Assembly: GCA_037446725.1 (NCBI GenBank)
Contig: JBBIIC010000010.1
Coordinates: forward strand, 1,114 to 65,113
DNA: 64,000 nucleotides
Origin: Actinomycetota bacterium
Lineage (GTDB): Bacteria > Actinomycetota > Coriobacteriia > Anaerosomatales > SLCP01
Reading direction: 5' to 3'
Part shown: one piece after another, positions 47,412 through 64,000 of the stretch
Layout of the letters: each line of letters starts with the position of its first letter
Position numbering within the stretch: position 1 is the stretch's first letter
The notes under the pieces: model-generated
Told to the model about the DNA's origin: nothing
Database searches by the model: none
What the model saw: the letters and a program-made list of their open reading frames with translations, nothing else
Made by a program: the position numbers and the translations under genes

Positions 47412-48167
47412 CTACTTCACAGCGGTGTGGATGGCGACGATGCCGCCGGTGCGGTCCTCCCAGGAGATCGCGGTGAACCCGGCGGCGCGCAGCTCGGCGG
47501 CAAGCGCGCCCTGCGACGGGAACGAGCGGATCGAGTCGTTGAGGTAGACGAAGGACGCCCGGTCGCGGGTGAGCAGCCCGCCGATGGCGGGGATCACGAC
47601 GCGCAGATAGACGTGGTAGAGCCAGCGCCACGGCGCGAAGGGCGGGCGTGAGAACTCGAGGATCACGTAGCGGCCGCCCGGCCTGAGTACGCGCAGGACC
47701 TCGGCGAGGTTGGCCTCGCGGTCCGGGAGGTTCCGCACCCCGAACGCCACGGTCACAACGTCGAAGGATGAGTCAGGAAACGGCAGGTCCTGCGCATCGG
47801 CTACCGAGAAAGACACCTTGGTGCGCCCCTTGAATCCCCGCGCCTTCTGCTCCGCGACCGCAAGCATCTCGGGCACGAAGTCGGTCCCGACCACCTCGGC
47901 CGGCCGGCCCTGCCGGGCGAGCGCAAGCGAGAGGTCACCCGTGCCGGCACACAGATCGAGTACGCGGCTCGAGGTCTTGAGATTGGCGGCCTGCACGGCA
48001 GCGCGGCGCCACGAGCGGTCGATCCCGAAGCTCGAGAGGATGTTGAACAGGTCGTACTTGTCCGCGATGAGGGAGAAGATGCCCCGGACGCGGTCGGCGG
48101 TGGGCTCACCGGGCGCAGGCGCCGCGGTGCCGCTCACGCCGTCGCGCTCGTCGATCGTGACGGACAT
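47412..48167 (-). CDS. ubiE: Demethylmenaquinone / ubiquinone-type C-methyltransferase (UbiE/MenG family)
   Basis: Track ORF 47412..48257 trimmed to the ATG at 48167 (MSVTIDERDG...). YDLFNILSSFGIDRSWRR and VLDLCAGTGDL (SAM motif I). TGATG overlap with the radical SAM stop. Confidence 0.85.
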   Translation of the reverse strand: MSVTIDERDGVSGTAAPAPGEPTADRVRGIFSLIADKYDLFNILSSFGIDRSWRRAAVQAANLKTSSRVLDLCAGTGDLSLALARQGRPAEVVGTDFVPEMLAVAEQKARGFKGRTKVSFSVADAQDLPFPDSSFDVVTVAFGVRNLPDREANLAEVLRVLRPGGRYVILEFSRPPFAPWRWLYHVYLRVVIPAIGGLLTRDRASFVYLNDSIRSFPSQGALAAELRAAGFTAISWEDRTGGIVAIHTAVK

Positions 48168-49957
48168 CAGGCCTCCGGGGTCTCGCACGCAGGACGGGGC
48201 CCGGGCACGGGGGGCTTCCGGGACCCGAACAGGGTAGCGAGATTCTCCCTCACCCACAACACGACGACATGGTAGACGTGGCGCGCGTGGATGTAGCGCG
48301 GCCAGTTGAGCTCGCTCTTCTCGCAGACGGTCGACTCGCTCAGCCGGTCGACCTCCCCCTTGAGCGCGGCGAGCTTGCGCTCGCGCACCGCGGCATCGGA
48401 CTCGCCCATCACGGAGTCGATGCGCTCCATGGCCTCGCGCGCCTGTAGGATGCGGTCCTCGGTGCGCGAAGCGACCCCGGGCTCGATGAGACCGAGACGG
48501 CCCTTGAGACGGTTGAGGCGCAGGCCCACCTCATACATCGTGTCGACCATCTCGTCTTTGGACAACGCATCGCTCTCGTAGTTCATGATGTACTTCCACG
48601 AGGGCCGCACGAGCAGCTGCCGATGCTCCTCCAGCGTGTCCGCGAGTAGCGTGTAGCCGTACTTCTCCGGGTTGTCATAGACCATCGAGCCCGGATCGAG
48701 GAACGGCGCCATCGGCGAGGAGAAGCACAACAGCCGCTTGTCGTTGTCGACCTGTGCGTAGAGCGATTCGAGGTAGGCGGGTGTCTCGAGCACCGAGGCG
48801 GCCGTTTGGGTCGGGATGCCGGTCATCATGTAAAGGTCGAACCGCGAACAGCCGTTGCGCAGCGCCGCGGCGATCGACTGTTCGACCTGAGCCGTCGTGT
48901 AGTGCGTCTTGCCGAACGCGGCCCGCACGTCGTCGTCGTGCGTCTCGATGCTGATCTCGACCGAGTAGTCGTCGAGGTGCTCGTTCAAGAAGCGGTAGAA
49001 GTCCTCGGCCGGCGGCTTGAAGAACTCGAACCCGATGGGATTGCGCAGGTTGATCTTCGAGAGCCCGCGTATGAACGCGGCGGTGTAGTCCCGTCCGGCC
49101 TGCAGGAAGTCGTTGAGCACGAAGATCGGGCCCGGGATGTACTTCTGGAAGTGCTCGATGTCGCGGACGAGCAGTTCGGGATCTCGGAAGGCGACCCGGT
49201 CGCGCCCGTAATGCGTGCGGAATGAGTACGCCGAGCCCCCGCACGTCACGCAGTTGCGCGTGCATCCGCGGCACGTCAGCGAGGCGCAGACGGGGTACTG
49301 CAGCCAGTCCTTGAACGGCACGAAGCCCATCATGTCGCGGTAGCGGATGACGGCCTTCATGTTGAAGGAGTAGTCGAGCGAGATGTCGTTCATGTCGCCG
49401 GGGACCCACTCGAACGGCGTGCTGTGCACCGAGCCCTGCCGCGTGGTGTAGGTGAGGTTGGGGATGTCGTCAACGCGTCCCTTGGCCTTGAGCGCGTAGA
49501 GCAGCCGCGTCATCGGCTCCTCGGTCGAGTCGCCACGCACCACGTAGTCGACCCACGGGTAGCTCGCCAACTCCTCGTGGAAAAAGCTCGCCGACAGCCC
49601 GCCGAAGATGACCGGCGTGTCGGGGTGGTACTTCTTGCAGATCTTCGCGATCTCGACCGACCCGTGGGCGTGCGGCAGCCAGTGCAGGTCGATGCCGAAG
49701 GCCACCGGGTTCATCTCACGGATGGCCTTCTCGACGTCGAAGCCCGGCTTGTTGAGCATGAGCACCGCGAGGTTGACGATGCGGACCTTCAGTCCGTGGC
49801 GCTCCATGTACTCGGCCATGGTCGTGAAGCCGAGCGGATACATCTCGAAGACAGGGGTCGAGGGCACCATGTCGGACACGGGTCCGAACATGATGGAGCG
49901 CTCTCTAAAGTCATACACGCTCGGTGCATGGAGCAGTACGAGATCGACACGCGACAT
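48167..49957 (-). CDS. Cobalamin-binding-domain (class B) radical SAM protein, function unknown
   Basis: 596 aa. N-terminal B12-binding-like region (VDLVLLHAPSVYDFRERSIMFGPVSDMVPSTPVFEMYPLGFTTMAEYMERHG) and a CX3CX2C cluster CTRNCVTC. GGAGGA lies 10 nt upstream. Confidence 0.8.
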   Translation of the reverse strand: MSRVDLVLLHAPSVYDFRERSIMFGPVSDMVPSTPVFEMYPLGFTTMAEYMERHGLKVRIVNLAVLMLNKPGFDVEKAIREMNPVAFGIDLHWLPHAHGSVEIAKICKKYHPDTPVIFGGLSASFFHEELASYPWVDYVVRGDSTEEPMTRLLYALKAKGRVDDIPNLTYTTRQGSVHSTPFEWVPGDMNDISLDYSFNMKAVIRYRDMMGFVPFKDWLQYPVCASLTCRGCTRNCVTCGGSAYSFRTHYGRDRVAFRDPELLVRDIEHFQKYIPGPIFVLNDFLQAGRDYTAAFIRGLSKINLRNPIGFEFFKPPAEDFYRFLNEHLDDYSVEISIETHDDDVRAAFGKTHYTTAQVEQSIAAALRNGCSRFDLYMMTGIPTQTAASVLETPAYLESLYAQVDNDKRLLCFSSPMAPFLDPGSMVYDNPEKYGYTLLADTLEEHRQLLVRPSWKYIMNYESDALSKDEMVDTMYEVGLRLNRLKGRLGLIEPGVASRTEDRILQAREAMERIDSVMGESDAAVRERKLAALKGEVDRLSESTVCEKSELNWPRYIHARHVYHVVVLWVRENLATLFGSRKPPVPGPRPACETPEA

Positions 49958-50222: not shown

Positions 50223-51401
50223 CTACGGCGACACCGATCCGCGCACGTGGCACTCGGCGCAGTACGTCGGCGCATGGCAGTCGAAGCATGCCTGCGCTCC
50301 GGACTCGCGCACCGGATCCATGTGCTGCTGGATCCACGTCCGGGCAGGATCGATCTCACCGTGGTGACAGTCGTTGCAGAAGTCGGCGCCGGGCTGACTT
50401 GCGTGGCACCTCTCGCAGACCTCGGGACGCGTCTTGCCGTCTTCGCCGTGGTCCTCCCCGAAGCCCTCGGGATGCGGCATCTGCACGCCGTGGCAACCGT
50501 CGCAGAACTCGCGCTCGTTGTGGCAGGTCTGGCAGTACCCGACCGCCGCGACGGGCGGCAGGTGCAGGAGCTGCTCTTCCATCGGGGCGTCGGTGTGCGG
50601 CTCCTCGAGGCCCTCACGTGCGGCCGTGTAGGCCGCGTAGTCCTCGTTGGCGAGCGCCGCGTGGCCGCCGCTCTCACCAAACGCCTCGTAGAAGCCCGGC
50701 TCGTCGTGATTAGCAGGCATGAGATCGAAGTCCGCAGGGTGGCATGCCTCGCACTCGCCCGGCGCGACGATGCCGCTCACCGACTCACCGCTTGTCGTAT
50801 GACAGCGGTAGCACGCCGCCATGAGCATGAAGTCCTCGTGCGGCTGGTTGGGCTCCCCGGTGTTGGGGTCGGTCAAAGTGAGTTCGAAGTCCTCTACGTG
50901 TGCGGTCCGGTTGTGGCAGACCGTACAGTGGATCTCGGCCTCCTCGTGTACAGCGTGGTCGATGATGATGCCTTTGCTCGGCGTGACGTTGCGGTTCTCA
51001 AGCCAGTGGCACTGGTTGCACTGCTTCGAGCCCATATGCGCACCGTCGAGCGCGAGATGCGAGCCCTTGTTCAGGGGCAGCTCGAACTTGTTGGTCGCGG
51101 TGAGGTAGAGCTCGCCGAGTGCCTCGGCCTTGTGGAGCAGGAAAGTGACCGGGTCGGCGTTCACCGGCATATGGCACGCCATACACGAGATCTCCGAGTG
51201 CGGCGAGCGATTGTACGCGAGGATAGTGTCGTCCTGAACCTTGTGGCACCCCTCGGCGCAGAACCAGTACGTCGAGGTGACGCCGAGCGCGGCAATCACG
51301 AACGCGGCGAGCCCGATGACCCCCGCGGCGGTCCAGGCGATGTAGCGGGGACGCCTGACCGGATCCGTGTAGCCGGAGAAGAATCCCCTCACGTCTGGCA
51401 T
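50223..51401 (-). CDS. Membrane-anchored dodecahaem cytochrome c with NapC/NirT/NrfH-like N-terminal module
   Basis: 392 aa. One TM helix (YIAWTAAGVIGLAAFVIAALGVTSTYWF) is followed directly by C48AEGCH (CX3CH). There are 11 further CXXCH motifs, at C73, C128, C159, C197, C217, C290, C300, C329, C342, C372 and C381. Confidence 0.9.
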   Translation of the reverse strand: MPDVRGFFSGYTDPVRRPRYIAWTAAGVIGLAAFVIAALGVTSTYWFCAEGCHKVQDDTILAYNRSPHSEISCMACHMPVNADPVTFLLHKAEALGELYLTATNKFELPLNKGSHLALDGAHMGSKQCNQCHWLENRNVTPSKGIIIDHAVHEEAEIHCTVCHNRTAHVEDFELTLTDPNTGEPNQPHEDFMLMAACYRCHTTSGESVSGIVAPGECEACHPADFDLMPANHDEPGFYEAFGESGGHAALANEDYAAYTAAREGLEEPHTDAPMEEQLLHLPPVAAVGYCQTCHNEREFCDGCHGVQMPHPEGFGEDHGEDGKTRPEVCERCHASQPGADFCNDCHHGEIDPARTWIQQHMDPVRESGAQACFDCHAPTYCAECHVRGSVSP

Positions 51402-51504: not shown

Positions 51505-54063
51505 CTAGTAGTACCAGTCCGTGACCCCGGGCGCGGTGACATACACGGAGCCGAATATCTCTCCGCCATCGTAGATGTCGTTCCAGTACACGTACACATT
51601 GTAGGGAGCCGCCTGCACCGGGACGTTGTTGATGGTCGAGATGCCGTTCCAAGAGGGCCCGCCGTCGTTGCCGGATGCAATCAGCCGCCCGTTCGTGCTG
51701 TTGCGTACCTCGTAGTACACACTCTCGTTGTTGCCACCCACGAATCCCGTCCACAGCAACCGGAGGGTCGCCGTCGGGCTCGACACGGTGAAGGTCGCCC
51801 TGTTGACGGGCTCGACGTTGCCGACCGAGTCGACCGACCAGAACTCGAGAGTGTGGTTTGCGCTGCCGCCGACTGGCGGCGCGGGCACGTTGACCGTCGT
51901 CCCCGTCTGCTGCGCGCCACCGTTGAGCCGATAGTGTGTGGCTGCGACAGTCGAGTGGGCATCGGTTGCCGTCAGCGTGATGGTGGCTGGTCCGATGTAA
52001 GAGGGCTGCGCGTTCGACGTCGTCACCGGCGGTGTCGTGTCGGCCGCAACCGTGAACAGGGCGGTCTTGCGAGCCTCGCTGTTGCCCAATTTGTCCAGCG
52101 ACCAAAACTGGATCGTGTGCACCCGCGTGCCGGAGAGGGGCGGCAGCACTCGTATGGTGGTGCCCACCTGGACCGGGCCTCCGTCGATCGTGTAGTAGGT
52201 GCGCCTGAGCCCGTGGACGAGCGAGTAGTACGGCACGTCTACGTCCGCAGCGGTCAGCTGGATGGTGGCACCACCGATGTAGGAGGCCACGGCGTTCGAG
52301 TTGGTCAACGGCGGGGTTGTATCTGTCACGTGACACCGTGCGCACAAGTTGAACGAAGCGTAGTCCCAGCCGCCACCCCAGGTCTTATTGTGGCAGCTCC
52401 AGCAGTTGTCGCCGACGTCGAACGGATGGTCGTACGCGATCCCTTCAGTCCGGTGGTTGAAGTCCGAGTGGACAGAGGAATGGCAGCCGCCCTGGCTACA
52501 GGTGGCGGACCACTCCGTGAACGTGTCTCGCGGGGTCGGATGGCACGAGGAGCAATCCGTGCCGTGAACGGTGGCCACGTTGGCGTTGCTGTGACACGGG
52601 TCGCAGGTGTAGGTGTCCCCTTCGATCTGGCTCGTCATCAGCGAGTAGTCGGCCGCGTGGCCGTGAGGCTCGAGTTGAGCGGAGTGGCAGGTGCCGCAGT
52701 CGAAGGTCGGCGACACTCCCGAATGGCACGCATCGCAGCCCGGGAGAGGCTCACCGGTGACCACCGAGCTCCCGAAGTGGATGTCGATCGCGTCTCCGGC
52801 TTCATGGCATGCGGTGCACTCCGTATACTCTTCGGGCACCTCGTGCAGCAACGAATGGCAGTTGAGACAGAGGCCATAACGGGGAGTCGACGCGTCCTCC
52901 ACGGCGGGTTCGATTGGTCTCACCAGGAAGTACTCGACGTCGCTCTCGTGCGGGAACACCTGGAACCGCGGGTTGTCGGTCGACTCCACACTCGGCGAGG
53001 TCGTCACGTTCTCGGAAGCATATGACGTGACCGAGAACTCCTGTCCTGCCAGCAGCGTCGGGTTCGTCCCTCGCTCGGACGGACCGACATCTCGCGCATC
53101 CTCGTGGCACTGCTGACAGATCGGTCCTCTGCCTTGCTGCAACTCGGTGCGCGCGGTCGTCTCCATCGATTCGCGGGGCATGATGTATCCGGCGTTGTCC
53201 TGGCCGAGGCTCCCGATCATGGTCTGCGTGGAGTCGACACCGTCAACGACCGGCAGGCGGTCGTAGTAGTACGCATCGCCCTCCGGCGCGACCAGGTCGT
53301 TCTCGACCGTATGGTCGCGCATGAGACCCGAGTCCTCGCGGTGCTGTCCGACACGTCCCTGGTGGCACGAAGCGCACCAGGCCGTGCCATACACGCCTAC
53401 GGTGGTCTCCGAGCTGCCGGGGGACTGTTTGAGCAGCCGATTGGTCCTGACGGCGTAGGCGGCATCACTTGCGACTGAAGAGCGCAGCCGATCGCCGAGG
53501 AAGGGCTCGATGGTCTCGGTATCGTGCGGTGAATGGCAGTCGCTGCACGTGAGTGTGCCGCCGGGACCCGAAAAGACCCCGGCGCTGCTCGTGGTGCCCA
53601 CCGAGCCGCCGGGGATGACACTCGTCGCCTCAATGCTGTGAGTCGCGGCCGGTTCCAGCCCGGTCCTGGCCTTGATCACACCGTAGACACCGGTCCCACC
53701 CGTCCCGTCGTGGCATGATTCGCAGGTCGCCTTGATCGTGGCCCCCGGCAGGAGCTTCACACCGGCGACCGGCGCCGCGTGAACCGAGTGGCAGGCCTGG
53801 CACTTGTTGGTGCCGGTCGTGAACGCGCCGTGCGGGCCCTTGCGGGTGTCGGCGGTCGGCGTGGTCTCGCTGCTCGACTCGAGGACCGCCTGCTCGGTGA
53901 GCCCGTGACAGTCGATGCACTGACTGCGGGCGACGCCTTCGGGGTAGGTAGCACTCTCGCTGGGATAGGCGAACGCGGCAGCGGCGGTCAGGAAGACCGC
54001 GCACGCCGCAATGGCGGCAACAGCTGCTGCTCTCGACAACCTCATCCGCGCCGATCTCCGCAT
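51505..54063 (-). CDS. Exported pentadecahaem cytochrome c with two tandem Ig-like surface domains and a C-terminal beta-sandwich-like domain
   Basis: 852 aa. Signal peptide (MRLSRAAAVAAIAACAVFLTAAAAFA; start 54063 or 54045). There are 14 CXXCH motifs, at C49, C88, C114, C173, C230, C316, C399, C416, C443, C456, C487, C504, C554 and C574, plus one CX4CH (C522SQGGCH). Repeats at aa 581-674 and 675-762. No LPXTG or SLH motif seen. Confidence 0.9.
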   Translation of the reverse strand: MRRSARMRLSRAAAVAAIAACAVFLTAAAAFAYPSESATYPEGVARSQCIDCHGLTEQAVLESSSETTPTADTRKGPHGAFTTGTNKCQACHSVHAAPVAGVKLLPGATIKATCESCHDGTGGTGVYGVIKARTGLEPAATHSIEATSVIPGGSVGTTSSAGVFSGPGGTLTCSDCHSPHDTETIEPFLGDRLRSSVASDAAYAVRTNRLLKQSPGSSETTVGVYGTAWCASCHQGRVGQHREDSGLMRDHTVENDLVAPEGDAYYYDRLPVVDGVDSTQTMIGSLGQDNAGYIMPRESMETTARTELQQGRGPICQQCHEDARDVGPSERGTNPTLLAGQEFSVTSYASENVTTSPSVESTDNPRFQVFPHESDVEYFLVRPIEPAVEDASTPRYGLCLNCHSLLHEVPEEYTECTACHEAGDAIDIHFGSSVVTGEPLPGCDACHSGVSPTFDCGTCHSAQLEPHGHAADYSLMTSQIEGDTYTCDPCHSNANVATVHGTDCSSCHPTPRDTFTEWSATCSQGGCHSSVHSDFNHRTEGIAYDHPFDVGDNCWSCHNKTWGGGWDYASFNLCARCHVTDTTPPLTNSNAVASYIGGATIQLTAADVDVPYYSLVHGLRRTYYTIDGGPVQVGTTIRVLPPLSGTRVHTIQFWSLDKLGNSEARKTALFTVAADTTPPVTTSNAQPSYIGPATITLTATDAHSTVAATHYRLNGGAQQTGTTVNVPAPPVGGSANHTLEFWSVDSVGNVEPVNRATFTVSSPTATLRLLWTGFVGGNNESVYYEVRNSTNGRLIASGNDGGPSWNGISTINNVPVQAAPYNVYVYWNDIYDGGEIFGSVYVTAPGVTDWYY
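51778..52323 (-). repeat. Tandem duplication encoding two ~90-aa Ig-like domains inside the cytochrome gene
   Basis: DTTPPLTNSNAVASYIGGATIQLTAAD...YYTIDGGPVQVGTTIRV...HTIQFWSLDKLGNSE...FTVAA is followed by DTTPPVTTSNAQPSYIGPATITLTATD...HYRLNGGAQQTGTTVNV...HTLEFWSVDSVGNVE...FTVSS. Confidence 0.8.
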
Positions 54064-54134: not shown

Positions 54135-54150
54135 TGTGAGCTACGTCACA
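54135..54150. promoter_or_regulatory. Perfect palindrome TGTGA-GCTACG-TCACA (Rex- or CRP/FNR-type operator candidate) upstream of the cytochrome genes
   Basis: The 18-mer GTGTGAGCTACGTCACAA (54134-54151) matches the Rex consensus TTGTGAA-N4-TTCACAA at 11 of 14 specified positions. It is also identical to the CRP core TGTGA-N6-TCACA. It lies 72-87 nt upstream of the ATG at 54063. A left half-site, TGTGATTATGGAATCA, is at 54102-54117. Confidence 0.5.
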
Positions 54151-54289: not shown

Positions 54290-55396
54290 CTACCGGGCGA
54301 GCCGCAACACCTGGATCCGGTCGTTCTCCTTGTCCGCGATGAGCAGAAGCTCGCCGTCTTCGGACACGTCGATCCCGTTCGGGAAGTTGAGCTGTGCGGG
54401 CAGGACGCCACGCGTACCTACCGAGGTCTGCGGCGTGCCCTTCCCGTCGAGCAGGACCACCGAGAACGTGAACGCATCTACCACGGCGAAGGTGTCCTCA
54501 TCGACGACCGCGATTCCTCTCGGCAACCCGAACTCGTAGGGTGTCCCCCCCTGCGCGCCCGTCTCCCACATGAATACCCCGTCAAGTGTGAAAGCCTGCA
54601 CCCGGCCGTTGTTCGAGTCGGCGACGAGTACGGTCGAATCCGGCATGATCGCGATCCCGTTCGGCCGCGCGAACTCCCCGGCGCCGCTGCCGGGCCGGCC
54701 GAACTGGCGCACGAACTCGCCGTCCTTGGTGAAGACGACCACCTGGTAGCTGTCGAGCGCATACACGAGATCGCCCCACAGCGCGACGTCGGTGACCGCG
54801 ATCCCGGTGCCGTCCTGTCCTGAGGCGCCGCGCCCCACCACGGTGTTCGGATCGGGGAAGCGTCTCAGGAAACGGCCCTGCTCGTCGAACACCTGGATCT
54901 GGTCGTTGCGGAAGTCGGCGACGTAGACATCACCGTCTTCGTCCACTTCTATACCCAGCGGCGAGTTCATGAGACCCGCCTCCCAGGTGGCCTCGTAGCC
55001 CGGAAGCGGCTTCGTGAGCCCGAACCCACCGAAAACGAAGAGGAAGCGTCCGCTCGGTCCGAACGCTGCCACCCTGTTGTTCTCGGTGTCGACTACGTAG
55101 ATCTTGCCGTCGGGCGCGAACGCCGCGTCCATCGGGCGGTCGAACCCCGGCGCGTCTCCCCTGCCGGGACCCGATATGGTCATCACGGGAGTCAGGCCGG
55201 CAATCGTCTCTCCCCCGCGAGTCACGAACCCGTCGGGCGTGGAGGGGTAGGAGATCATGTAGACGACGAGGCCGATGAGGACGATGGCAAGGAGGACAGC
55301 GGTCAGGATAAGGAGTCGTCTCGCGGACAAGAGACGGACGGCCAGGCCGCCATCATCCGTCGGCGTGACCTCGACCGGCGGCTGCCGTTCGCTCAC
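54290..55396 (-). CDS. Membrane-anchored NHL-repeat six-blade beta-propeller protein
   Basis: 368 aa. TM helix LLILTAVLLAIVLIGLVVYMI, then six NHL-like repeats (FDRPMDAAFAPDGKIYVVDTENNRVAAF, LNSPLGIEVDEDGDVYVADFRNDQIQVF, FARPNGIAIMPDSTVLVADSNNGRVQAF, LNFPNGIDVSEDGELLLIADKENDRIQVL and others). Confidence 0.88.
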   Translation of the reverse strand: MSERQPPVEVTPTDDGGLAVRLLSARRLLILTAVLLAIVLIGLVVYMISYPSTPDGFVTRGGETIAGLTPVMTISGPGRGDAPGFDRPMDAAFAPDGKIYVVDTENNRVAAFGPSGRFLFVFGGFGLTKPLPGYEATWEAGLMNSPLGIEVDEDGDVYVADFRNDQIQVFDEQGRFLRRFPDPNTVVGRGASGQDGTGIAVTDVALWGDLVYALDSYQVVVFTKDGEFVRQFGRPGSGAGEFARPNGIAIMPDSTVLVADSNNGRVQAFTLDGVFMWETGAQGGTPYEFGLPRGIAVVDEDTFAVVDAFTFSVVLLDGKGTPQTSVGTRGVLPAQLNFPNGIDVSEDGELLLIADKENDRIQVLRLAR

Positions 55397-56094
55397 GGTG
55401 TCACCCCCAGACGATTGAGACCCGCGAGCGCCTCCTCGAGACCCGGATCGTAGCTCAGGGCGATCCGGTAGCGCTCCTCGGCCAAGCCTGGCTGTCCGAC
55501 CTGCTCGTAGGCCTCCCCAAGTAATGCCTGCAGGTCAGCGCTATGGGGATCCTCCGAGAGGGCGGGAGGCAGGATCTCCGTGACACGCGCCCACTCCCCC
55601 CGCTCGGCGAGACGCCGGGCGAGAAGTGCCGCTGCCAGCGTGTGGGTTGGCCAGGCTTCCAGGGTCGCCTCAAGGAGCTCTTCTGCCTCGGCCCCACGGC
55701 CGAGTTCGATCAGGCACACGGCACCGTTGTAGAGAGCGGCCGGCTCGTCCTTCCGCACGGACAGCACTGCCTCATACTCCTTGACAGCGTCGGCATACCT
55801 GCCGGATTCCTGGTACGCATAGCCGAGGACAAGCCGCGCGTCTAGATCGTCGGGGTTCGCCTCCAGCGTTGCTGAGAGCTCAGCGATGCGCTCCTCCTGC
55901 GGACCGGCATGCCGTCGTTCCCCGCCGCCAACGGTGAGCACGACGAGCACCCCAGCTCCCACGACCGCAACGGCGAGTACGACGACGAGGGTCACGAGCC
56001 GGCGAGGAGCCTCGGCGGCCGTGTCGCGAACGTCGTTCGGGTCGGTCGGGGCGTCGGGTCCGCTGATCTCGGGTGTGCCGACTTCTAGGGTCAC
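55393..56094 (-). CDS. Membrane-anchored TPR-repeat protein
   Basis: 233 aa. TM helix LVTLVVVLAVAVVGAGVLVVLTV, then TPR repeats (LVLGYAYQESGRYADAVKEYEAVL and others). 4-nt overlaps on both sides. Confidence 0.8.
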   Translation of the reverse strand: MTLEVGTPEISGPDAPTDPNDVRDTAAEAPRRLVTLVVVLAVAVVGAGVLVVLTVGGGERRHAGPQEERIAELSATLEANPDDLDARLVLGYAYQESGRYADAVKEYEAVLSVRKDEPAALYNGAVCLIELGRGAEAEELLEATLEAWPTHTLAAALLARRLAERGEWARVTEILPPALSEDPHSADLQALLGEAYEQVGQPGLAEERYRIALSYDPGLEEALAGLNRLGVTP

Positions 56095-56729
56095 GCAGAC
56101 GCACTCCGTGGGCTGAGGTGGAACGATAGTATCTGCAACTCGCCTGCCACGTCTGCCTGACGAACTTCGACCCCTTCGGGTACCTGAAGCTGAACGGGAG
56201 CGAAGTTCATGATGGCCCGCACACCTGAGGCGACAAGGCGGTCTGCCACCCCCTGCGCGTTAGCCGCCGGCACGGTGATGATGGCAATCTCGACGCCCTC
56301 GCGGTCAACGACCGCCTCGAGGTTGTCCGCGTCTTCGACCGTATGGCCGTCGACGGCCGTCCCGATCTTCGCGGGATCGGCGTCGAGCACCGCGACGACC
56401 TTCATGCCGCGCTCTTCGAACCCCGGGTAGCTCTGCAGCGCGCTGCCGAGGCGCCCATATCCGACGATGGCGACGCGCCGGTGCTCGGTCAGCCCGAGGT
56501 GCTTAGAGAGATGGCTGATGAGCAAGTCGACGTCATAGCCGATGCCCCTCACCCCGAACTCCCCGAGATACGAGAGGTCCTTGCGCACCTGCGCGGCGTT
56601 GGTGCCCGCCATCTCGGCGATCTGCACCGAGTTGACCACGGGCATATGCAACGCGCTCGCCTGAACGAGACAGCGCAGGTAAACCGGCAGGCGTTGTACG
56701 GTCGTGGGAGGGATCTGGGGTGCCTTCAT
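56091..56729 (-). CDS. rex: Redox-sensing transcriptional repressor Rex
   Basis: 212 aa. VQRLPVYLRCL, VRKDLSYLGEFGVRGIGYDV, and Rossmann motif VAIVGYGRLGSAL. Confidence 0.93.
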   Translation of the reverse strand: MKAPQIPPTTVQRLPVYLRCLVQASALHMPVVNSVQIAEMAGTNAAQVRKDLSYLGEFGVRGIGYDVDLLISHLSKHLGLTEHRRVAIVGYGRLGSALQSYPGFEERGMKVVAVLDADPAKIGTAVDGHTVEDADNLEAVVDREGVEIAIITVPAANAQGVADRLVASGVRAIMNFAPVQLQVPEGVEVRQADVAGELQILSFHLSPRSASA

Positions 56730-56776: not shown

Positions 56777-58954
56777 CTATGTCCCTGCCGCTCCTGCCGC
56801 CTGGATCATCTCGTCTATGCCCGGGAAGGATGGTTCGAGACGCTTGATGCGTTCGAACTGCTCGAGAGCCTTCTGCGGTTGGCCGTCCCGAAGGTAGATC
56901 TCACCGAGTATCTTGCTCGGGTCGACGTACGCAGGGTCGAGCTCGATCGCGAAGAGCAGCTCTTCGATGGCCGCATCCGTCTGACCCGTGGCGTCGAGCG
57001 CGACCGCGTACTGGAATCGTATACCCGGTCCGAACTCGCTCACCTCGATGCCCTTGCGCGCCCAGCGGAGCGCCTCCTGGAAGTAGCTGGGAGAGAGGGC
57101 CTGGCCCGCGATGTTGTAGACGTTCGCGATGAACATGTAGTTGTCGTACTCGTAGGGCACGAACTCGATCGTCTCGATGAGTGCCGCCTCGGCCGAACGC
57201 AGCGCGGACTCGGCCCGCGCCAGTGTCTCCGAGGTGTCCATACCAGCCTCGGCCTCGGTCCGCTCGCGCTGCAGGTACCCGAGGAACGTCTCGACGCGAA
57301 CGAGGGCGACCTGCGAAAGGTACATGTCGTTGTAGGGATTGAGCCTCACGGCCGCCTCGGCCCGCGCCAGCTTGAGCGAAGAGGTCTCGGCCAGGCGCGC
57401 GTCGAGGTAGTACCGGTCCGCGAGCAGGTAGACGAAATTGCCTACCGAGAGGACGACGACCGCGACGCACACGAGTGCGGCCGCGATGCGGCCCCATCCG
57501 GGTGGCTTGACCTCCACGGCTCGGGCGTCGGGCGACATCAGGGCGGCGAACGCGATCCAGGCCAGGAACGTCGAGCCCGTCACCGAGATGCCGAAGGTCA
57601 GGTGGACCAGGTATCCGATCACCGCCGCCCACATGCCGGAGAGGACGAGGCTTCCGTCGGCGCTGCCGGACAACCCCTGCCGCGCGAAAGCGGTCCTGAA
57701 GGACAGCACGAGCACGGCGATGAACAGGCCGTAGAGCAGCATCATCCCCGGGATCCCGACTCCCGAGGAGAGCTGAAGGACGTAGTTGTGGGCGTTGTCA
57801 GCAACCGACTGGTGACCGGCGGCCGCCGCATACTCCATCGGCTTGAACCCCGGGAAGATCAGGCGGAAGGTGTCCGGCCCGAACCCGAAGAGCGGCCGCT
57901 CCAGGGTCGCACGCCACGCAGCGTCCCAGATCTGGAAGCGTGTCACGGCGCTACCCTGATCGAACTCGGCTATGGACACGAGCCGCTTCCACGCGTTCAT
58001 GACGGGGTCGTCCGCCATCAGGCTGCGTCCAACCACGATGGCGGACAGCACTGCGATCGCACCCGCGAATGACCAGTCTACCGAGGTGAGTGCCGACCTT
58101 CTGCGCCACGCCGCGATTCCGAGCGCGACGATCGCGACAGCCCCCCCTATCCACGCTCCTCGCGTGAACGCCACGACCCAGCAGATCACCGCAAGCACTG
58201 ACCCGGCCCAGTAGACGATCCGCAACCGTTGCTCGCGCTCGGAAAGCGCGAGCGAAAGCGAGATAGGCAGCAGGATCACGAGGAAGCCGCCGAGCAGGTT
58301 CGGGTTCCCGTAGAAGGAGAACGCCCGGTTCGCCTCGAAGGGAAGCTCGGCCCACGACAGCGGATCGAGACCGAGATACTGAAGGACGCCGTAGCCGCTC
58401 ACGAGGACGCCCGAGTAGAAGAGCGTGCGGGCCAGCGCGCGGAGCCGGGAGAGGCGGTCGAGGTATTGGACCGCAAGGAAGTAGACCACCGCGTAGTTGA
58501 TGAGCGACAGCATACCCTCGAAGCGCCGGTACTTGCCAAACACCGCAGTCGCGGGATGTACGGACAGCAACGTCGACACGGCGAACCAGCCGAGCACTGC
58601 CAGAATGAGGTAGTCGATCTTCGTCCGCCTGACCGTGCCCCCGTGAACGAGGATGTGGAGCAACCACCCCGCGAAGGCCACCAGCGTGATGCCGCGCAGG
58701 AAGACGACCTTGATGATGTCGAACTGATCGTACGAGAACGGCCACTCGACGCCGGGCAGCCACGTCCAGTTGGAGATGATCACCGGCACCAGGAAGACCA
58801 TGGCATGCAGTCCGTACCACCCGATGCGCTGCGCGGTGGACATCTCGTCGTTCGACCCGGGCGTCGCGGGGCTCGCAACCTGTGCCGCAGATGACGTCGC
58901 GCGACCCTTCCCGGGTGTACCTTTCCCGCGGGACGCCCCGCCTGACTTGGCCAC
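56777..58954 (-). CDS. O-antigen ligase/polymerase-family (Wzy_C) membrane protein fused to C-terminal TPR domain
   Basis: 725 aa. About 12 TM with the Wzy_C signature region (FTRGAWIGG, RFQIWDAAWRATLERPLFGFGPDTF, NAHNYVLQLSSGVGIPG). The C-terminal ~230 aa carry TPR repeats. Confidence 0.82.
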   Translation of the reverse strand: MAKSGGASRGKGTPGKGRATSSAAQVASPATPGSNDEMSTAQRIGWYGLHAMVFLVPVIISNWTWLPGVEWPFSYDQFDIIKVVFLRGITLVAFAGWLLHILVHGGTVRRTKIDYLILAVLGWFAVSTLLSVHPATAVFGKYRRFEGMLSLINYAVVYFLAVQYLDRLSRLRALARTLFYSGVLVSGYGVLQYLGLDPLSWAELPFEANRAFSFYGNPNLLGGFLVILLPISLSLALSEREQRLRIVYWAGSVLAVICWVVAFTRGAWIGGAVAIVALGIAAWRRRSALTSVDWSFAGAIAVLSAIVVGRSLMADDPVMNAWKRLVSIAEFDQGSAVTRFQIWDAAWRATLERPLFGFGPDTFRLIFPGFKPMEYAAAAGHQSVADNAHNYVLQLSSGVGIPGMMLLYGLFIAVLVLSFRTAFARQGLSGSADGSLVLSGMWAAVIGYLVHLTFGISVTGSTFLAWIAFAALMSPDARAVEVKPPGWGRIAAALVCVAVVVLSVGNFVYLLADRYYLDARLAETSSLKLARAEAAVRLNPYNDMYLSQVALVRVETFLGYLQRERTEAEAGMDTSETLARAESALRSAEAALIETIEFVPYEYDNYMFIANVYNIAGQALSPSYFQEALRWARKGIEVSEFGPGIRFQYAVALDATGQTDAAIEELLFAIELDPAYVDPSKILGEIYLRDGQPQKALEQFERIKRLEPSFPGIDEMIQAAGAAGT

Positions 58955-58962
58955 ACTCGCTC

Positions 58963-60342
58963 CTACCTAGAGCCCCTACCGGTCAATACGACGCGAATGG
59001 TGTCCACGACGATCTGCAGGTCCATGGACAACGTCTGATGATACAGGTAGATGAGATCGTACTTGAGCTTGCGCTCGGCGGTCGTCGCATAATCTCCAGA
59101 GACCTGCGCGAGGCCGGTGACGCCGGGCTTGATGCGGAAGCGCTCGCGATAGCCGGGGATCTCGGCACAGAAACGCTCGGTGAAGTGGGGGCGCTCAGGC
59201 CGCGGGCCGACGAAACTCATCTGGCCGAGCAGGATGTTGACGAGCTGCGGCAGCTCGTCGAGCCGATAGCGCCGCATGAACCGGCCGAAGGGTGTGATGC
59301 GCGGGTCGTCCTCGCTCGCGAGCACCGGCCCGGACTCGCGCTCGGCATCCCGCACCATCGTGCGAAACTTCAGCAGCGTGAAGGGGTGGAGGTTCTTGCC
59401 GGAACGTTCCTGCACGTAGAGGACGGGCAGCCCCATCGTCAGCACGATGCCCATCACGCACAACAGGAGGACGGGCGAGAGCACCACCAGAAGCACCAGC
59501 GCCCCCACTACGTCCACGCCGCGCTTGACCGCACGGTACCAGGCGGGCGTGGCGGCCCGCGTGATCTCCATCAGCGGGATGTCGGCGATGACGCTGTCGA
59601 AGGTCCCGATGAACACCTCGTAGAGCTCAGGCACGACGTCGATGCGCACGTCGAGCTCGTCGGCGACGGTGAGCCGCTCGATGAAGTCCCGCAACTCCAC
59701 GGGAGAGACGACGATCACGCGATCTATGCCACGCTCGGCTACGAGACGCGTCGTATCGTCGATCGTTCCGAGCACCGGCAGCACGCGCCCCTCGTGATCG
59801 AGCGCCTCGACATCGGACTGCGGTTCGTCGAGGGCCACGAGCCCTTCGACCCGGTAGCCCCACCGCGCTCGGCCGCTCAGCTCGCGGGCGAGCTCGCGCG
59901 CGAGCGAACCGGTACCGACCACCAGAATGCGCTGCTCGGGCCAGCGGATGGAGGTCACCCGCATGAAGGCGAGGCGCCAGCCCATCACGAGTCCGACGTT
60001 GATTCCCCAGCTCAGCAGGATGGCAAGACGGGAGAAGGCGAAGAACCGCGGGCCGCCGAAGAACGAGATCGCTGCCGTGAGCACCGTGCCGAACGTCACC
60101 GCCGCGAACGCGGCGCGCAGCAGTGTCCAGGCGTTCTCCGTGCGCTCGGGCTCGTAGAGCCCGTAAATGTAGCCGGCGGCGAGGTAGACCACCGTAAGGA
60201 CCGGAGCGAGCGCGACGTAGGCGTCGAAGTTGAACGCCGGCAGCTCGCCGCCGAAGCGGATGTAGAACGCCGCGATGATGCCGAGGTTGATGAGCACCGC
60301 GTCGAGTACGACGGCCAGCGCGATGAACCGTCCGCGCCTCAC
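58963..60342 (-). CDS. Polyprenyl-phosphate sugar-1-phosphate transferase (WbaP/EpsB-type initiating glycosyltransferase)
   Basis: 459 aa. N-terminal TM bundle. C-terminal bacterial sugar transferase domain (DELPQLVNILLGQMSFVGPRPERP, KPGVTGLAQVSG). Confidence 0.9.
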   Translation of the reverse strand: MRRGRFIALAVVLDAVLINLGIIAAFYIRFGGELPAFNFDAYVALAPVLTVVYLAAGYIYGLYEPERTENAWTLLRAAFAAVTFGTVLTAAISFFGGPRFFAFSRLAILLSWGINVGLVMGWRLAFMRVTSIRWPEQRILVVGTGSLARELARELSGRARWGYRVEGLVALDEPQSDVEALDHEGRVLPVLGTIDDTTRLVAERGIDRVIVVSPVELRDFIERLTVADELDVRIDVVPELYEVFIGTFDSVIADIPLMEITRAATPAWYRAVKRGVDVVGALVLLVVLSPVLLLCVMGIVLTMGLPVLYVQERSGKNLHPFTLLKFRTMVRDAERESGPVLASEDDPRITPFGRFMRRYRLDELPQLVNILLGQMSFVGPRPERPHFTERFCAEIPGYRERFRIKPGVTGLAQVSGDYATTAERKLKYDLIYLYHQTLSMDLQIVVDTIRVVLTGRGSR

Positions 60343-61502: not shown

Positions 61503-61508
61503 GCGGCG

Positions 61509-63287: not shown

Positions 63288-64000
63288 ATGCGCGCTTCGA
63301 CCTGGTCGCGTCTACCACAGACGCGGCTGTGCCGTGTACTGTCCGTCATGCTGGCGCTGCTGATCTCGGGCGCCCCGGGCGCGATCGCCGCCGAGCTCGT
63401 CTCGCAGACGGGCGAGATACCCGAGCTCGTCGCAGGCCCGGTACACGGCGCCGTCTACCTCGCACCAGGCGGCTCGGCGACGATCCCGGTCCTCGTCAGC
63501 GCCACCGGGAACATCAACAACGTGCCGTCGTCGAACCCCACGCTCGTCAGAATCCCGACCGCGTACGCCGTGGGCGCCGGCGGATCGGTGTCCTCCACCA
63601 GCCCCAGCGGGCAGCTCGCCTTCTGGCGCGGCTCCCCCGGTAACGCCGTCACGTGGACGGGAGCGCCCACCCCCTACCGCGTACCCGTCTCCGTCCAAGT
63701 CCTCCCTGGAGCCCCGATGGGTACGTACAAGATCCCGATTCCGCCCACGATCGGCGGCAACCTCGGCTCGGGCAGCAATACACTCGTAGACGAGGCCGGT
63801 GACGCGATCACCGTCGTCGTCGGTGACGGAATTGCTCCGACCACGGTCGCGACCCCGAGCGGCACGATCGGCAACAGCGGATGGTACCGGAGCGACGTCA
63901 CCGTGGACCTCGCGGCGACGGACAACCCCGGCGGCACGGGCGTCGACCGCACCGAGTTCAGCCTCGATGCCGGCGGGACCTGGACCACCGGGACCTCGCT
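63288..64000 (+). CDS. Secreted surface protein with Ig-like (OmpL47/chitobiase-C-like) domain (N-terminal 237 aa; continues beyond the right edge)
   Basis: Absent from the ORF track because it has no stop in the window. ATG at 63288 with GGAGG 5 nt upstream. MRASTWSRLPQTRLCRVLSVMLALLISGAPGAIAA signal peptide. Later DGIAPTTVATPSGTIGNSGWYRSDVTVDLAATDNPGGTGVDRTEFSLDAGGTW. Confidence 0.7.
   Translation, partial: MRASTWSRLPQTRLCRVLSVMLALLISGAPGAIAAELVSQTGEIPELVAGPVHGAVYLAPGGSATIPVLVSATGNINNVPSSNPTLVRIPTAYAVGAGGSVSSTSPSGQLAFWRGSPGNAVTWTGAPTPYRVPVSVQVLPGAPMGTYKIPIPPTIGGNLGSGSNTLVDEAGDAITVVVGDGIAPTTVATPSGTIGNSGWYRSDVTVDLAATDNPGGTGVDRTEFSLDAGGTWTTGTS

What the first reader, a model, noticed from the sequence alone, without database searches (positions are those of the whole stretch)
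51505..54063. Modular architecture of the 15-haem protein: haem-poor inserts, one CX4CH site, duplicated Ig-like domains shared with another surface protein, and no known wall anchor
Haem motifs are unevenly spaced. They are dense at aa 399-579 (nine sites), but gaps of about 80 aa without any haem site separate C230, C316 and C399. This suggests inserted non-haem domains or substrate/partner-binding lobes. One site is CX4CH (C522SQGGCH). The C-terminal third (aa 581-852) has no haem site. It contains two tandem ~90-aa domains (DTTPP..T.SNA..SYIG.ATI.LTA.D...Y...GG..Q.GTT..V...HT..FWS.D..GN.E...FTV) and an Asn/Tyr/Gly-rich terminal domain ending DWYY. The same kind of domain (D.IAPTT...GWY...VTVDL.A.D..G.GV...F.LD.GG.W) appears in the partial secreted protein at 63288-64000. 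This suggests a shared cell-surface display scaffold. I saw no LPXTG, SLH or lipobox anchor, so the retention mechanism is unknown.
Basis: seen in the sequence. Interest (0 to 1): 0.7.

Follow-up and report, generated by a model that had tools for sequence, protein, structure and literature searches.

The report
Modular surface multihaem cytochrome, Coriobacteriia
This gene encodes a secreted 15-haem electron-transfer protein made of four reusable modules, from an uncultured Gram-positive-type (Coriobacteriia) bacterium; it belongs to a large uncharacterised family probably used to respire on extracellular acceptors such as iron minerals, and how it is held at the cell surface is still unknown.

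Summary
The sequence facts are correct. There is an intact 852-aa ORF (public gene calls start at Met7, giving 846 aa). It has 14 CXXCH and one CX4CH site, two tandem Ig-like domains, a terminal β-domain, and no LPXTG, SLH or conserved lipobox.

The interpretation needs revising. The two "haem-poor inserts" are not insertions. They are conserved, confidently modelled parts of a 7-haem core (aa 34-405), and they carry three of its seven candidate distal ligands (H251, M295, H372). This core is a large family (855 clusters). It usually stands alone in a cassette Rex–TPR–NHL–heptahaem–NapC-like cytochrome. In some relatives an NHL propeller is inserted inside "gap 1".

Residues 471-852 form a rare cassette: 5 haems including the CX4CH site, OmpL47-type Ig domains, and a C-terminal domain (CTD) found in only 93 clusters. 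The cassette occurs on unrelated multihaem N-termini. The Ig duplication is ancient. The neighbouring secreted proteins do share the Ig domain.

Most likely function: a Rex-controlled extracellular electron conduit fed by the membrane NapC-like cytochrome. The NHL partner and/or the CTD are the candidate retention devices. This is a new variant of a known kind. Function and localisation are inferred, not shown.

The parts
51505..54063 (-). Whole CDS of the 15-haem c-type cytochrome. It is 852 aa from ATG 54063; public gene calls use ATG 54045 (Met7), giving 846 aa.
53968..54063 (-). Sec-type signal peptide (aa 1-32) ending in the family-conserved AxA|YP cleavage site. It contains a non-conserved lipobox-like IAAC at aa 18-21.
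52849..53964 (-). Module A: heptahaem core (aa 34-405; haems 1-7). It is homologous to a stand-alone 340-420-aa protein family of 855 clusters. The AF2 model has pLDDT 77.5 and pTM 0.82, with no solved structural relative.
53119..53361 (-). 'Gap 1' (aa 235-315). It is a conserved part of the core and carries invariant H251, the LGxxNxGY(V/I)MP motif and M295 (97% conserved). Mean pLDDT is about 87.
53152..53295 (-). Loop/hairpin (aa ~257-304) that is replaced by a ~355-aa NHL beta-propeller in fused relatives (P0038-P0044).
52870..53103 (-). 'Gap 2' (aa 321-398). It is a conserved part of the core with the invariant DNPRFQ.FPHE motif (H372). Only aa ~344-363 form a variable loop.
52654..52848 (-). 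Three-haem c7-like block (aa 406-470; haems 8-10 at C416, C443, C456). It is present only in the 15-haem subclass and absent from the 12-haem subclass.
52324..52653 (-). Five-haem cassette head (aa 471-580; haems 11-15). It is c3/c7-type and always precedes the Ig-Ig-CTD block in relatives.
52480..52500 (-). CX4CH haem site C522-S-Q-G-G-C-H528. The consensus across the family and the wider cassette is CQQGGCH.
52042..52323 (-). Ig-like domain 1 (aa 581-674), OmpL47-type.
51784..52041 (-). Ig-like domain 2 (aa 675-760), OmpL47-type.
51508..51783 (-). C-terminal domain (CTD; aa 761-852). It is a seven-strand beta-sandwich ending in an aromatic residue. It has no Pfam or NCBIfam match, occurs in only 93 clusters among 1.84 billion representatives, and is almost always at the extreme C-terminus.
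54135..54150 (.). Rex-operator-like perfect palindrome TGTGAGCTACGTCACA, 72-87 nt upstream of the ATG at 54063. It is the only exact match in the window.
54290..55396 (-). NHL-repeat beta-propeller protein with an N-terminal TM anchor. It is a conserved upstream partner and is homologous to the propeller inserted in fused relatives.
55393..56094 (-). TPR protein with an N-terminal TM anchor; a conserved member of the cassette.
56091..56729 (-). Redox-sensing repressor Rex; a conserved head of the cassette.
50223..51401 (-). Membrane-anchored NapC/NirT-type multihaem cytochrome (11 CXXCH + 1 CX3CH). It is the putative menaquinol dehydrogenase and a conserved downstream partner.
63288..64000 (+). 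5' part of a secreted 281-aa protein (P0263) with one OmpL47-type Ig-like domain. The next gene (outside the window) has at least 4 more copies.

Best explanation
The gene encodes a Sec-exported c-type cytochrome assembled from four evolutionary modules. (1) A compact heptahaem core (aa 34-405). (2) A three-haem c7-like block (aa 406-470). (3) A five-haem c3/c7-like head that contains the conserved CX4CH site (aa 471-580). (4) A haem-free arm of two OmpL47-type Ig-like domains plus a rare dedicated C-terminal beta-sandwich (CTD). It is the long form of a widespread Coriobacteriia respiratory cassette: Rex - TPR - NHL - heptahaem cytochrome - NapC/NirT-type cytochrome. Proposed mechanism (inferred): the membrane-anchored NapC-type cytochrome oxidises menaquinol and passes electrons to the heptahaem core. 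The core is held at the membrane face by the TM-anchored NHL propeller, which docks at the gap-1 hairpin. Electrons then run along roughly 15 closely packed, mostly bis-His haems to an extracellular acceptor such as Fe(III) minerals, humics or a partner. The Ig-Ig-CTD arm acts as a spacer and attachment device to an envelope component rather than as a conductor. Rex switches expression on when the NADH/NAD+ ratio rises. What is shown: the motifs, the modules, their conservation, the synteny, the fusion variants and the operator sites. What is inferred: localisation, electron path, acceptor, and the roles of NHL and the CTD.
For: Motifs and ligands. There are 15 haem sites. The protein has exactly 15 candidate distal ligands: 6 invariant His plus M295 in the core, and 8 non-motif His in aa 407-546. 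Export. A signal peptide with the family-conserved AxA|YP site is present. Module A as an independent unit. In 80 genome loci, 79 ORFs consist of the core module alone. The core family has 855 clusters at E<=1e-10. The model has pTM 0.82. Conserved cassette. The order Rex-TPR-NHL-core(-NapC-like) recurs in more than 25 loci, and the window's order is reproduced in L001, L002 and L005. NHL link. Besides adjacency, P0038-P0044 carry an NHL propeller inserted at aa ~257-304 of the core, and it is homologous to the window's NHL protein (E 2e-17). Membrane anchors. NHL, TPR and the NapC-like protein each have one N-terminal TM helix; the cytochrome has none beyond its signal peptide. The NapC/NirT Pfam hit on the downstream protein is above threshold. 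C-terminal cassette. The block of 5 haems with CQQGGCH, 2-5 Ig domains and the CTD follows N-terminal modules holding 0-25 other haems in about 35 full-length representatives. The arm is confidently all-beta and resembles three-domain stalks of surface proteins. Rex. A perfect operator-like palindrome lies 72 nt upstream. Such sites are 13-fold enriched upstream of core genes (p about 1e-7). Physiological plausibility. Cultured Anaerosomatales reduce Fe(III), and a Rex-linked multihaem cluster was noted in the obligate Fe(III) reducer Parvivirga hydrogeniphila (PMC9686372).
Against: There is no experimental datum on localisation, haem loading, redox properties or phenotype for any family member. 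The haem region could not be modelled with haems, so ligand assignments are counts, not geometry. The CTD cassette also occurs in a MAG labelled Deltaproteobacteria (P0182), so the CTD is not a monoderm-specific wall anchor. Cultured Anaerosoma tenue has a similar cytochrome repertoire but does not reduce Fe(III), so the acceptor may be something else. The last haem motif (C574) lies 3 residues before Ig1, so the geometry of the arm relative to the haem chain is unknown. The monoderm envelope of the source organism is inferred from taxonomy only.
Confidence: 0.6

Rival explanations
1. It is a periplasm-like (membrane-wall interspace) electron carrier or a multihaem reductase acting on a soluble substrate such as nitrite, sulfur compounds or metal chelates, not a cell-surface conduit. 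On this view the Ig-CTD arm only mediates complex formation.
For: OcwA, the one characterised Gram-positive surface cytochrome, also reduces soluble nitrite and hydroxylamine (PMC6703420). The best, though non-significant, fold hit of the core is hydroxylamine oxidoreductase. The partners NHL, TPR and NapC-like are all membrane-anchored. A. tenue has similar cytochromes but no Fe(III) reduction.
Against: There are enough conserved His/Met residues for all 15 haems to be six-coordinate, so nothing points to an open catalytic site. There is no CXXCK or other catalytic motif. No enzyme domain was found by Pfam, NCBIfam or fold search. OmpL47-type Ig strings are typical of surface proteins, and the same domain builds neighbouring secreted multi-Ig proteins.
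Confidence: 0.2
2. The CTD and/or the core mediate self-assembly, so the protein forms an oligomer or filament (a cytochrome 'nanowire') rather than a monomer anchored to the wall.
For: Marginal profile hits of the core to filament-forming OmcE (7tfs, E 0.003) and to a 16-chain multihaem entry (9yuq, E 0.003). Module B resembles the 'nanowire-like' c7 array GSU1996 (3ov0, E 9e-7). The CTD is always terminal and ends in a conserved hydrophobic-x-hydrophobic-x-aromatic strand, which could take part in strand exchange. Core genes are often tandemly multiplied.
Against: The E-values are driven by CXXCH-containing stretches and are far from family level. Foldseek finds no similarity to OmcS, OmcE or OmcZ. 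The seven candidate distal ligands of the core are all supplied in cis, so an inter-subunit ligand is not required. No assembly machinery is evident in the window.
Confidence: 0.1
3. The two haem-poor segments are inserted non-haem domains or substrate/partner-binding lobes.
For: The ~80-aa spacing is real. In fused relatives a whole NHL propeller sits inside gap 1, so this region tolerates insertion and probably faces a partner.
Against: Both segments are present in all 119 core homologues. They contain invariant H251 and H372 and 97%-conserved M295. They have no Pfam match of their own. They are modelled at pLDDT 80-87 as part of a single domain with pTM 0.82.
Confidence: 0.1

Closest known systems
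OcwA (TherJR_2595) of Thermincola potens, the nonahaem cell-surface terminal reductase of a Gram-positive bacterium (PDB 6I5B; PMC6703420)
   Same: It is a secreted multihaem c-type cytochrome of a monoderm bacterium proposed to deliver respiratory electrons outside the wall. It has mixed His/His and His/Met ligation. No canonical anchor has been described for it.
   Different: There is no detectable sequence or fold similarity. OcwA belongs to the NrfA/c554/MccA structural family and has two open-coordination haems. The window protein has 15 sites with a full set of candidate distal ligands, Ig-like domains and a CTD.
MtrA/DmsE-type decahaem cytochromes of Shewanella (PDB 6R2Q chain A)
   Same: It is the only solved protein that the core profile touches (E 6.5e-5, 25 bits). 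A segment similar to 'LGxxNxG...P...CxxCHxD' is shared. The Anaerosomatales paper also calls such genes 'MtrA homologs'.
   Different: The match is a sum of short stretches around haem motifs. The core has 7 haems, not 10. There is no MtrB-type porin partner. The organism is (by taxonomy) monoderm. Foldseek finds no match.
GSU1996 / cytochrome c7 arrays of Geobacter (PDB 3OV0) and tetrahaem cytochrome c3
   Same: Module B (aa 406-580) matches Pfam Cytochrome_C7 and Cytochrom_c3_2 and the GSU1996 c7-type domains. Its packing is dense, at about 22 aa per haem. From established knowledge, CX4CH sites are a normal variant in Desulfovibrio c3 cytochromes.
   Different: Here the c7/c3-like haems are a segment of a much larger protein and are fused to Ig-like domains. 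GSU1996 is a soluble periplasmic protein of a diderm.
OmpL47 (Leptospira) and other proteins with OmpL47-type beta-barrel/Ig-like domains (NCBIfam NF047446)
   Same: The two repeats score above the curated cut-off (81.3 against 40 bits). OmpL47 is a surface-exposed protein (PMC2698987, listed).
   Different: Only the domain is shared. The full-length OmpL47 equivalog model is far below threshold (23 against 250 bits). Leptospira is a diderm and OmpL47 has no haems.
NHL-repeat proteins encoded next to multihaem cytochromes in diderm electroactive bacteria (Tenderia UetH/UetI, Geobacter Gmet_0556, Desulfovibrio ferrophilus)
   Same: An NHL beta-propeller gene is adjacent to EET cytochrome genes and is proposed to stabilise cytochrome complexes (bioRxiv 10.1101/2022.05.06.490989).
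   Different: Here the link is much tighter: a conserved TPR-NHL-heptahaem triad in dozens of loci, plus true fusion variants with the propeller inserted inside the cytochrome. The organisms are Actinomycetota.

Membership tests
c-type multihaem cytochrome | Multiple CXXCH (or variant) covalent haem-binding motifs, far above chance | tested here: met
   14 CXXCH + 1 CX4CH, against 0.05 expected in shuffles. Pfam Cytochrome_C7, Cytochrom_c3_2 and Paired_CXXCH_1 all score above their cut-offs.
c-type multihaem cytochrome | Export signal (haem attachment occurs outside the cytoplasm) | tested here: met
   The N-terminus has a positively charged region, a hydrophobic core and a family-conserved AxA|YP site.
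c-type multihaem cytochrome | A distal axial ligand available for each haem | tested here: met
   Core: invariant H78, H95, H142, H180, H251, H372 plus M295 (97% conserved), for 7 haems. Module B: 8 non-motif His for 8 haems. These are counts only; the geometry was not tested.
c-type multihaem cytochrome | Haems actually bound and redox-active | not testable with these tools
   This needs haem staining, mass spectrometry and spectroscopy of the protein.
OmpL47-type beta-barrel (Ig-like) domain, NCBIfam NF047446 | Score above the curated cut-off (40 bits) | tested here: met
   81.3 bits from two stretches. The neighbouring protein P0263 scores 58.3 bits and the gene after it 164 bits.
OmpL47-type beta-barrel (Ig-like) domain, NCBIfam NF047446 | All-beta sandwich/barrel fold of ~70-90 residues | tested here: met
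   The AF2 model has pLDDT 80-95 with 7-8 strands per repeat. Foldseek matches Ig/FN3-like strings.
MtrA/DmsE decahaem family | About 10 haems in about 300-350 aa with family-level sequence similarity | tested here: not met
   The profile E-value is 6.5e-5 (25 bits), assembled from short stretches. The core has 7 haems. There is no Foldseek match.
MtrA/DmsE decahaem family | Partner MtrB-type outer-membrane porin gene | tested here: not met
   The neighbours are NHL, TPR, NapC-like, Rex and a radical-SAM protein. No porin appears in the window operon or in syntenic loci.
OcwA / NrfA-c554-MccA structural family | Sequence or fold similarity to NrfA-family haem cores; open-coordination catalytic haem(s) | tested here: not met
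Sortase-anchored (LPXTG) wall proteins | C-terminal LPXTG-like motif followed by a hydrophobic segment and a positively charged tail | tested here: not met
   No LPXT[GAS], LAXTG or NPQTN motif is present. The only hydrophobic segment is the signal peptide. The protein ends ...GVTDWYY.
SLH- or other known wall-binding-domain proteins (SLH, LysM, GW, CWB) | Pfam/NCBIfam match to a wall-binding domain | tested here: not met
   No such hit was found on the whole protein at E<=0.1 or on the CTD alone at E<=10.
Bacterial lipoproteins | A conserved lipobox [LVI][ASTVI][GAS]C at the end of the signal peptide | tested here: inconclusive
   IAAC at aa 18-21 fits the loose pattern. However, the Cys is absent or out of context in many homologues, and the hydrophobic core continues to a conserved AxA|YP site. 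Signal-peptidase-I cleavage is more likely.
T9SS C-terminal sorting domains (Por_Secre_tail) | Match to the CTD models; Bacteroidota host | tested here: not met
   There is no NCBIfam or Pfam hit. The carriers are Actinomycetota and one Deltaproteobacteria-labelled MAG.
NapC/NirT quinol dehydrogenases (downstream gene 50223-51401) | N-terminal TM helix plus a Cytochrom_NNT domain above threshold | tested here: met
   PF03264 scores 44.6 bits (cut-off 24.1). The TM helix is at aa ~19-49. The NrfH and NapC equivalog models score below their cut-offs, so this is a family-level assignment only.

The most novel reading that the evidence does not exclude
The block '5-haem head with CQQGGCH site + OmpL47-type Ig domains + CTD' is a previously unrecognised, evolutionarily mobile display/attachment cassette for extracellular cytochromes. 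Its rare terminal beta-sandwich (93 clusters in 1.84 billion) would be a new kind of sorting or envelope-attachment domain. In the same system, the TM-anchored NHL propeller (with TPR) would be the dedicated membrane dock of a heptahaem cytochrome family whose fold is unlike any solved multihaem protein. Together these would define a distinct Actinomycetota route for electrons across a Gram-positive envelope.
Probability: 0.3. Interest if true: 0.75.

Novelty: new variant of a known kind. Interest (0 to 1): 0.5.

Why it matters
How Gram-positive bacteria pass respiratory electrons through a thick wall is known from only a few Firmicutes proteins, and none has a defined anchoring mechanism. This locus belongs to a large family (855 clusters) that is entirely uncharacterised and is found in subsurface Coriobacteriia (OPB41/Anaerosomatales), which include obligate Fe(III) reducers. 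The analysis turns a descriptive oddity into testable hypotheses. These are a defined heptahaem core with predicted ligands, an NHL docking site supported by fusion variants, a Rex operator, and a rare C-terminal domain that is the prime candidate for retention. It also supplies module boundaries for expression constructs and structure determination.

Tried and rejected
(1) Full-length AF2 model with 27 sequences: the haem region came out at pLDDT about 35 and was unusable; only aa 580-851 were kept.
(2) Foldseek of the good core model against the PDB: no significant hit.
(4) phmmer and profile searches against PDB sequences: only motif-driven weak hits to MtrA, OmcE, 9yuq and c7. I rejected these as evidence of family membership.
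(5) Pfam on the isolated gaps and the CTD at E<=10: nothing. The sub-threshold CBM_56 hit on Ig2 (18.7 against 27 bits) was disregarded.
(6) BLAST self-comparison did not report the internal repeat, so I aligned the units directly.
(7) The family-specific Ig HMM did not pick up the partial ORF in the window at E<=1e-3. This was resolved only by recovering the full-length protein.
(8) The exact look-up of the 852-aa product failed because public gene calls use Met7.
(9) The frameshift explanation for the gaps was rejected because homologues align colinearly.
(10) A recent duplication of the Ig domains was rejected: nucleotide identity is 62% and both copies occur in all relatives.
(11) Literature searches for this cassette found only the genome-level mention in PMC9686372.
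(12) No sortase or S-layer gene was found among the window ORFs I scanned, but not every ORF was scanned.


Full report
**Observation**

The minus-strand ORF 51505..54063 is intact and 852 aa long. It has high third-position GC, like the surrounding genes. It contains CXXCH at C49, 88, 114, 173, 230, 316, 399, 416, 443, 456, 487, 504, 554 and 574, plus one CX4CH (C522SQGGCH). Composition-matched shuffles give 0.05 CXXCH on average. All Cys except C21 lie in motifs. Public gene calls start at Met7, giving 846 aa. That exact product is on record on three contigs, flanked by the same NHL and NapC-like genes. Note that alignment A1 is offset by -1, because I clipped the start codon when building it.

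**Source organism and family**

Full-length homologues at 42-92% identity come from metagenomes and from MAGs labelled Coriobacteriia, Anaerosomatales or Actinomycetota. They are named only 'cytochrome c3 family protein' or 'hypothetical'. Part of the window is identical to NCBI assembly GCA_964392675.1. No species-representative genome has a full-length copy above 48% identity; over the core module alone the best is 56%.

The family has two subclasses. The 15-haem form includes the window protein. The 12-haem form lacks the block holding C416, C443 and C456. The CX4CH site (consensus CQQGGCH) is conserved in essentially all members.

**The 'haem-poor inserts'**

A scan of species-representative genomes showed that residues 1-404 usually match on their own. 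Re-analysis of 80 loci found 79 ORFs consisting of this module alone. They are about 350-420 aa long and nearly all have 7 or 8 haem motifs, often in tandem copies. A dedicated search returned 855 clusters at E<=1e-10.

In a 119-sequence alignment, the non-motif residues H78, H95, H142, H180, H251 and H372 are invariant and M295 is 97% conserved. That gives seven candidate distal ligands for seven haems. Three of them lie in the two gaps. Gap 1 also carries the LGxxNxGY(V/I)MP motif, and gap 2 the DNPRFQxFPHE motif.

With this alignment AlphaFold2 gives pLDDT 77.5 and pTM 0.82. The gaps are modelled at about 87 and 80; only aa ~344-363 form a variable loop. Neither gap has a Pfam match of its own.

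So the gaps are integral parts of a compact heptahaem domain. They are not inserted lobes and they are not mistranslations. At 53 aa per haem, the core is in the normal range for large multihaem cytochromes (my own knowledge of MtrC, OmcS and OcwA). Module B has 22 aa per haem, like c3/c7 cytochromes.

**NHL link**

In proteins P0038-P0044 the same seven-haem core is split by an NHL beta-propeller of about 355 aa. BLASTP maps window residues 75-256 and 305-405 to either side of the propeller. The propeller is homologous to the window's separately encoded NHL protein, 54290..55396 (E 2e-17).

That NHL gene sits directly upstream of the core gene in more than 25 loci, together with a TPR protein and Rex. 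The NHL, TPR and downstream NapC/NirT-type proteins each have a single N-terminal TM helix. Gene fusion plus conserved adjacency argue for a physical NHL-core interaction at the gap-1 hairpin. This is an inference.

**Module B and the C-terminal cassette**

Residues 406-580 match Cytochrome_C7 and c3 models and the c7 arrays of GSU1996 (3ov0, E 9e-7). They contain eight non-motif His for eight haems.

Residues 581-760 are two OmpL47-type domains (NF047446, 81.3 bits against a cut-off of 40).

The last 92 residues have no family match. In the full-length model, aa 580-851 are confident (pLDDT 80-95) and all-beta: two sandwiches plus a seven-strand terminal domain. Foldseek matches them to three-domain Ig/FN3 strings of surface proteins: the GhpA grappling hook, the SiiE adhesin, fibronectin, and an archaeal S-layer protein. 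No enzyme fold appears.

A profile of the terminal domain, searched against 1.84 billion representatives, found only 93 clusters. In almost all of them the match ends at the last residue. In about 35 full-length carriers it follows the same block: a 5-haem head with a CQQGGCH-type site, then 2-5 Ig domains. The N-terminal parts differ and hold 0-25 other haems. Two small lipoprotein-like carriers have no haems. Named carriers include a Thermoleophilia MAG and a MAG labelled Deltaproteobacteria.

P0200 has the window protein's C-terminal half on a different N-terminal module. The real modularity is therefore: core, then a c7 block, then a mobile '5-haem-Ig-Ig-CTD' cassette.

**Age of the duplication**

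Ig1 and Ig2 are 55% identical at protein level and 62% at nucleotide level. Only 25 of 47 identical residues use the same codon. Both copies exist in every relative, so the duplication is ancient.

The window lineage has the highest within-protein identity (55% against 30-52% elsewhere). Its Ig1 resembles other members' Ig2 at least as well as their Ig1. This is a weak hint of an old secondary homogenisation.

**Shared domain with the neighbouring protein**

Inside the window the partial ORF matches only the first half of the OmpL47 model (23.9 bits). Its pairwise similarity to the cytochrome's repeats is weak (z 1.7-3.1).

The full-length protein (P0263, 281 aa, identical over the window part) scores 58.3 bits, and 36 bits against my family Ig HMM. 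The overlapping next gene has at least 4 further copies (164 bits). Related genomes encode giant NHL + Ig proteins: L041 has 10 copies and L073 has one detected copy.

**Anchoring**

There is no LPXTG-type motif, no C-terminal TM segment, and no hit to SLH, LysM, GW or T9SS-CTD models. The lipobox-like IAAC inside the signal peptide is not conserved, and it precedes a conserved AxA|YP site.

Retention is unexplained by known mechanisms. The candidates are the CTD and the TM-anchored NHL/TPR partners.

**Regulation and context**

A perfect Rex-operator-like palindrome (TGTGAGCTACGTCACA) lies at 54135-54150, 72 nt upstream of the ATG. It is the only exact match in the window.

Across the 80 loci, sites with at most one mismatch are 13-fold enriched in the 200 nt upstream of core genes (9 sites, p about 1e-7). 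This includes the syntenic relatives L001 and L002.

The wider window encodes MenG, complex I subunits, Tat components and HypA/B. That fits a respiratory setting.

The Anaerosomatales description notes 17-18 multihaem cytochromes per genome. It also notes a Rex-linked cluster in the obligate Fe(III) reducer Parvivirga hydrogeniphila (PMC9686372).

**Comparison with known systems**

Functionally the nearest analogue is OcwA of Thermincola, but that belongs to the NrfA family and has open-coordination haems. NHL proteins next to EET cytochromes are known in diderms. Here, however, the NHL-cytochrome association extends to true gene fusions.

**Verdict**

The protein is best read as the long form of a Rex-controlled extracellular electron-transfer cassette of Coriobacteriia. 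It is a new variant of a known kind. It has an unrecognised heptahaem core family and a rare C-terminal cassette, and the role of that cassette's terminal domain in retention is the most interesting open point. All functional statements are inferences from sequence, conservation, synteny and predicted structure.

Noticed in passing
window 54135-54150: A perfect Rex-operator-like palindrome, TGTGAGCTACGTCACA, lies in the NHL-cytochrome intergenic region, 72-87 nt upstream of the cytochrome's ATG. Similar sites are 13-fold enriched upstream of heptahaem-core genes in related loci (p about 1e-7).
   Followed up: yes
window 54045 vs 54063: The start codon is ambiguous. Public gene calls and all homologues start at the equivalent of Met7 (846 aa), and a GGAG lies 10 nt upstream of that ATG.
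   Followed up: yes
window 50223-51401 (-): The downstream NapC/NirT-like cytochrome has 11 CXXCH plus one CX3CH (CAEGCH) immediately after its TM helix. That makes 12 sites, matching the 12 counted in most homologues.
   Followed up: partly
window 63288-64000 (+) and L081:3843-5033: The partial ORF is a complete 281-aa secreted protein in the source assembly (GCA_964392675.1). Its stop overlaps by 4 nt the start of a gene encoding at least 4 OmpL47-type domains. This may be one split or frameshifted large surface protein, or a two-gene operon.
   Followed up: partly
window 56777-62909 (-): A block of envelope-polysaccharide genes lies directly upstream of rex: phosphomannomutase, a GT4 glycosyltransferase, a polyprenyl glycosylphosphotransferase, and a 725-aa Wzy_C/O-antigen-ligase-like protein with C-terminal TPR. 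The same order occurs in relative L001. It may be linked to wall polymer synthesis or to glycosylation of the Thr/Ser-rich surface proteins.
   Followed up: no
window 48167-49957 (-) and 47412-48257 (-): A TIGR04190-family B12-binding radical-SAM protein (622 bits) and a MenG/UbiE methyltransferase follow the cytochrome genes. The radical-SAM gene is syntenic in L001, L002, L005, L012 and L027. It may be involved in quinone or cofactor modification tied to the cassette.
   Followed up: no
L041:1-4370 (-), L073:84-3545 (+): Giant haem-free proteins combining NHL propellers with OmpL47-type Ig domains lie near heptahaem-core genes in other Actinomycetota MAGs. L041 has 10 detected Ig copies and L073 has one.
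   Followed up: partly
P0200 (metagenome protein, 933 aa): This protein has nearly the same C-terminal half as the window protein (haem head, two Ig domains, CTD ending VDWWY) but a different N-terminal multihaem module. It is a direct example of module shuffling within this lineage.
   Followed up: partly
window 55393-56094 (-): The cassette's TPR protein gives a weak hit to the CcmH/CycH (NrfG-like) TPR domain (PF23914, E 6e-5, below the cut-off). This raises the possibility of a role in cytochrome maturation rather than scaffolding.
   Followed up: no
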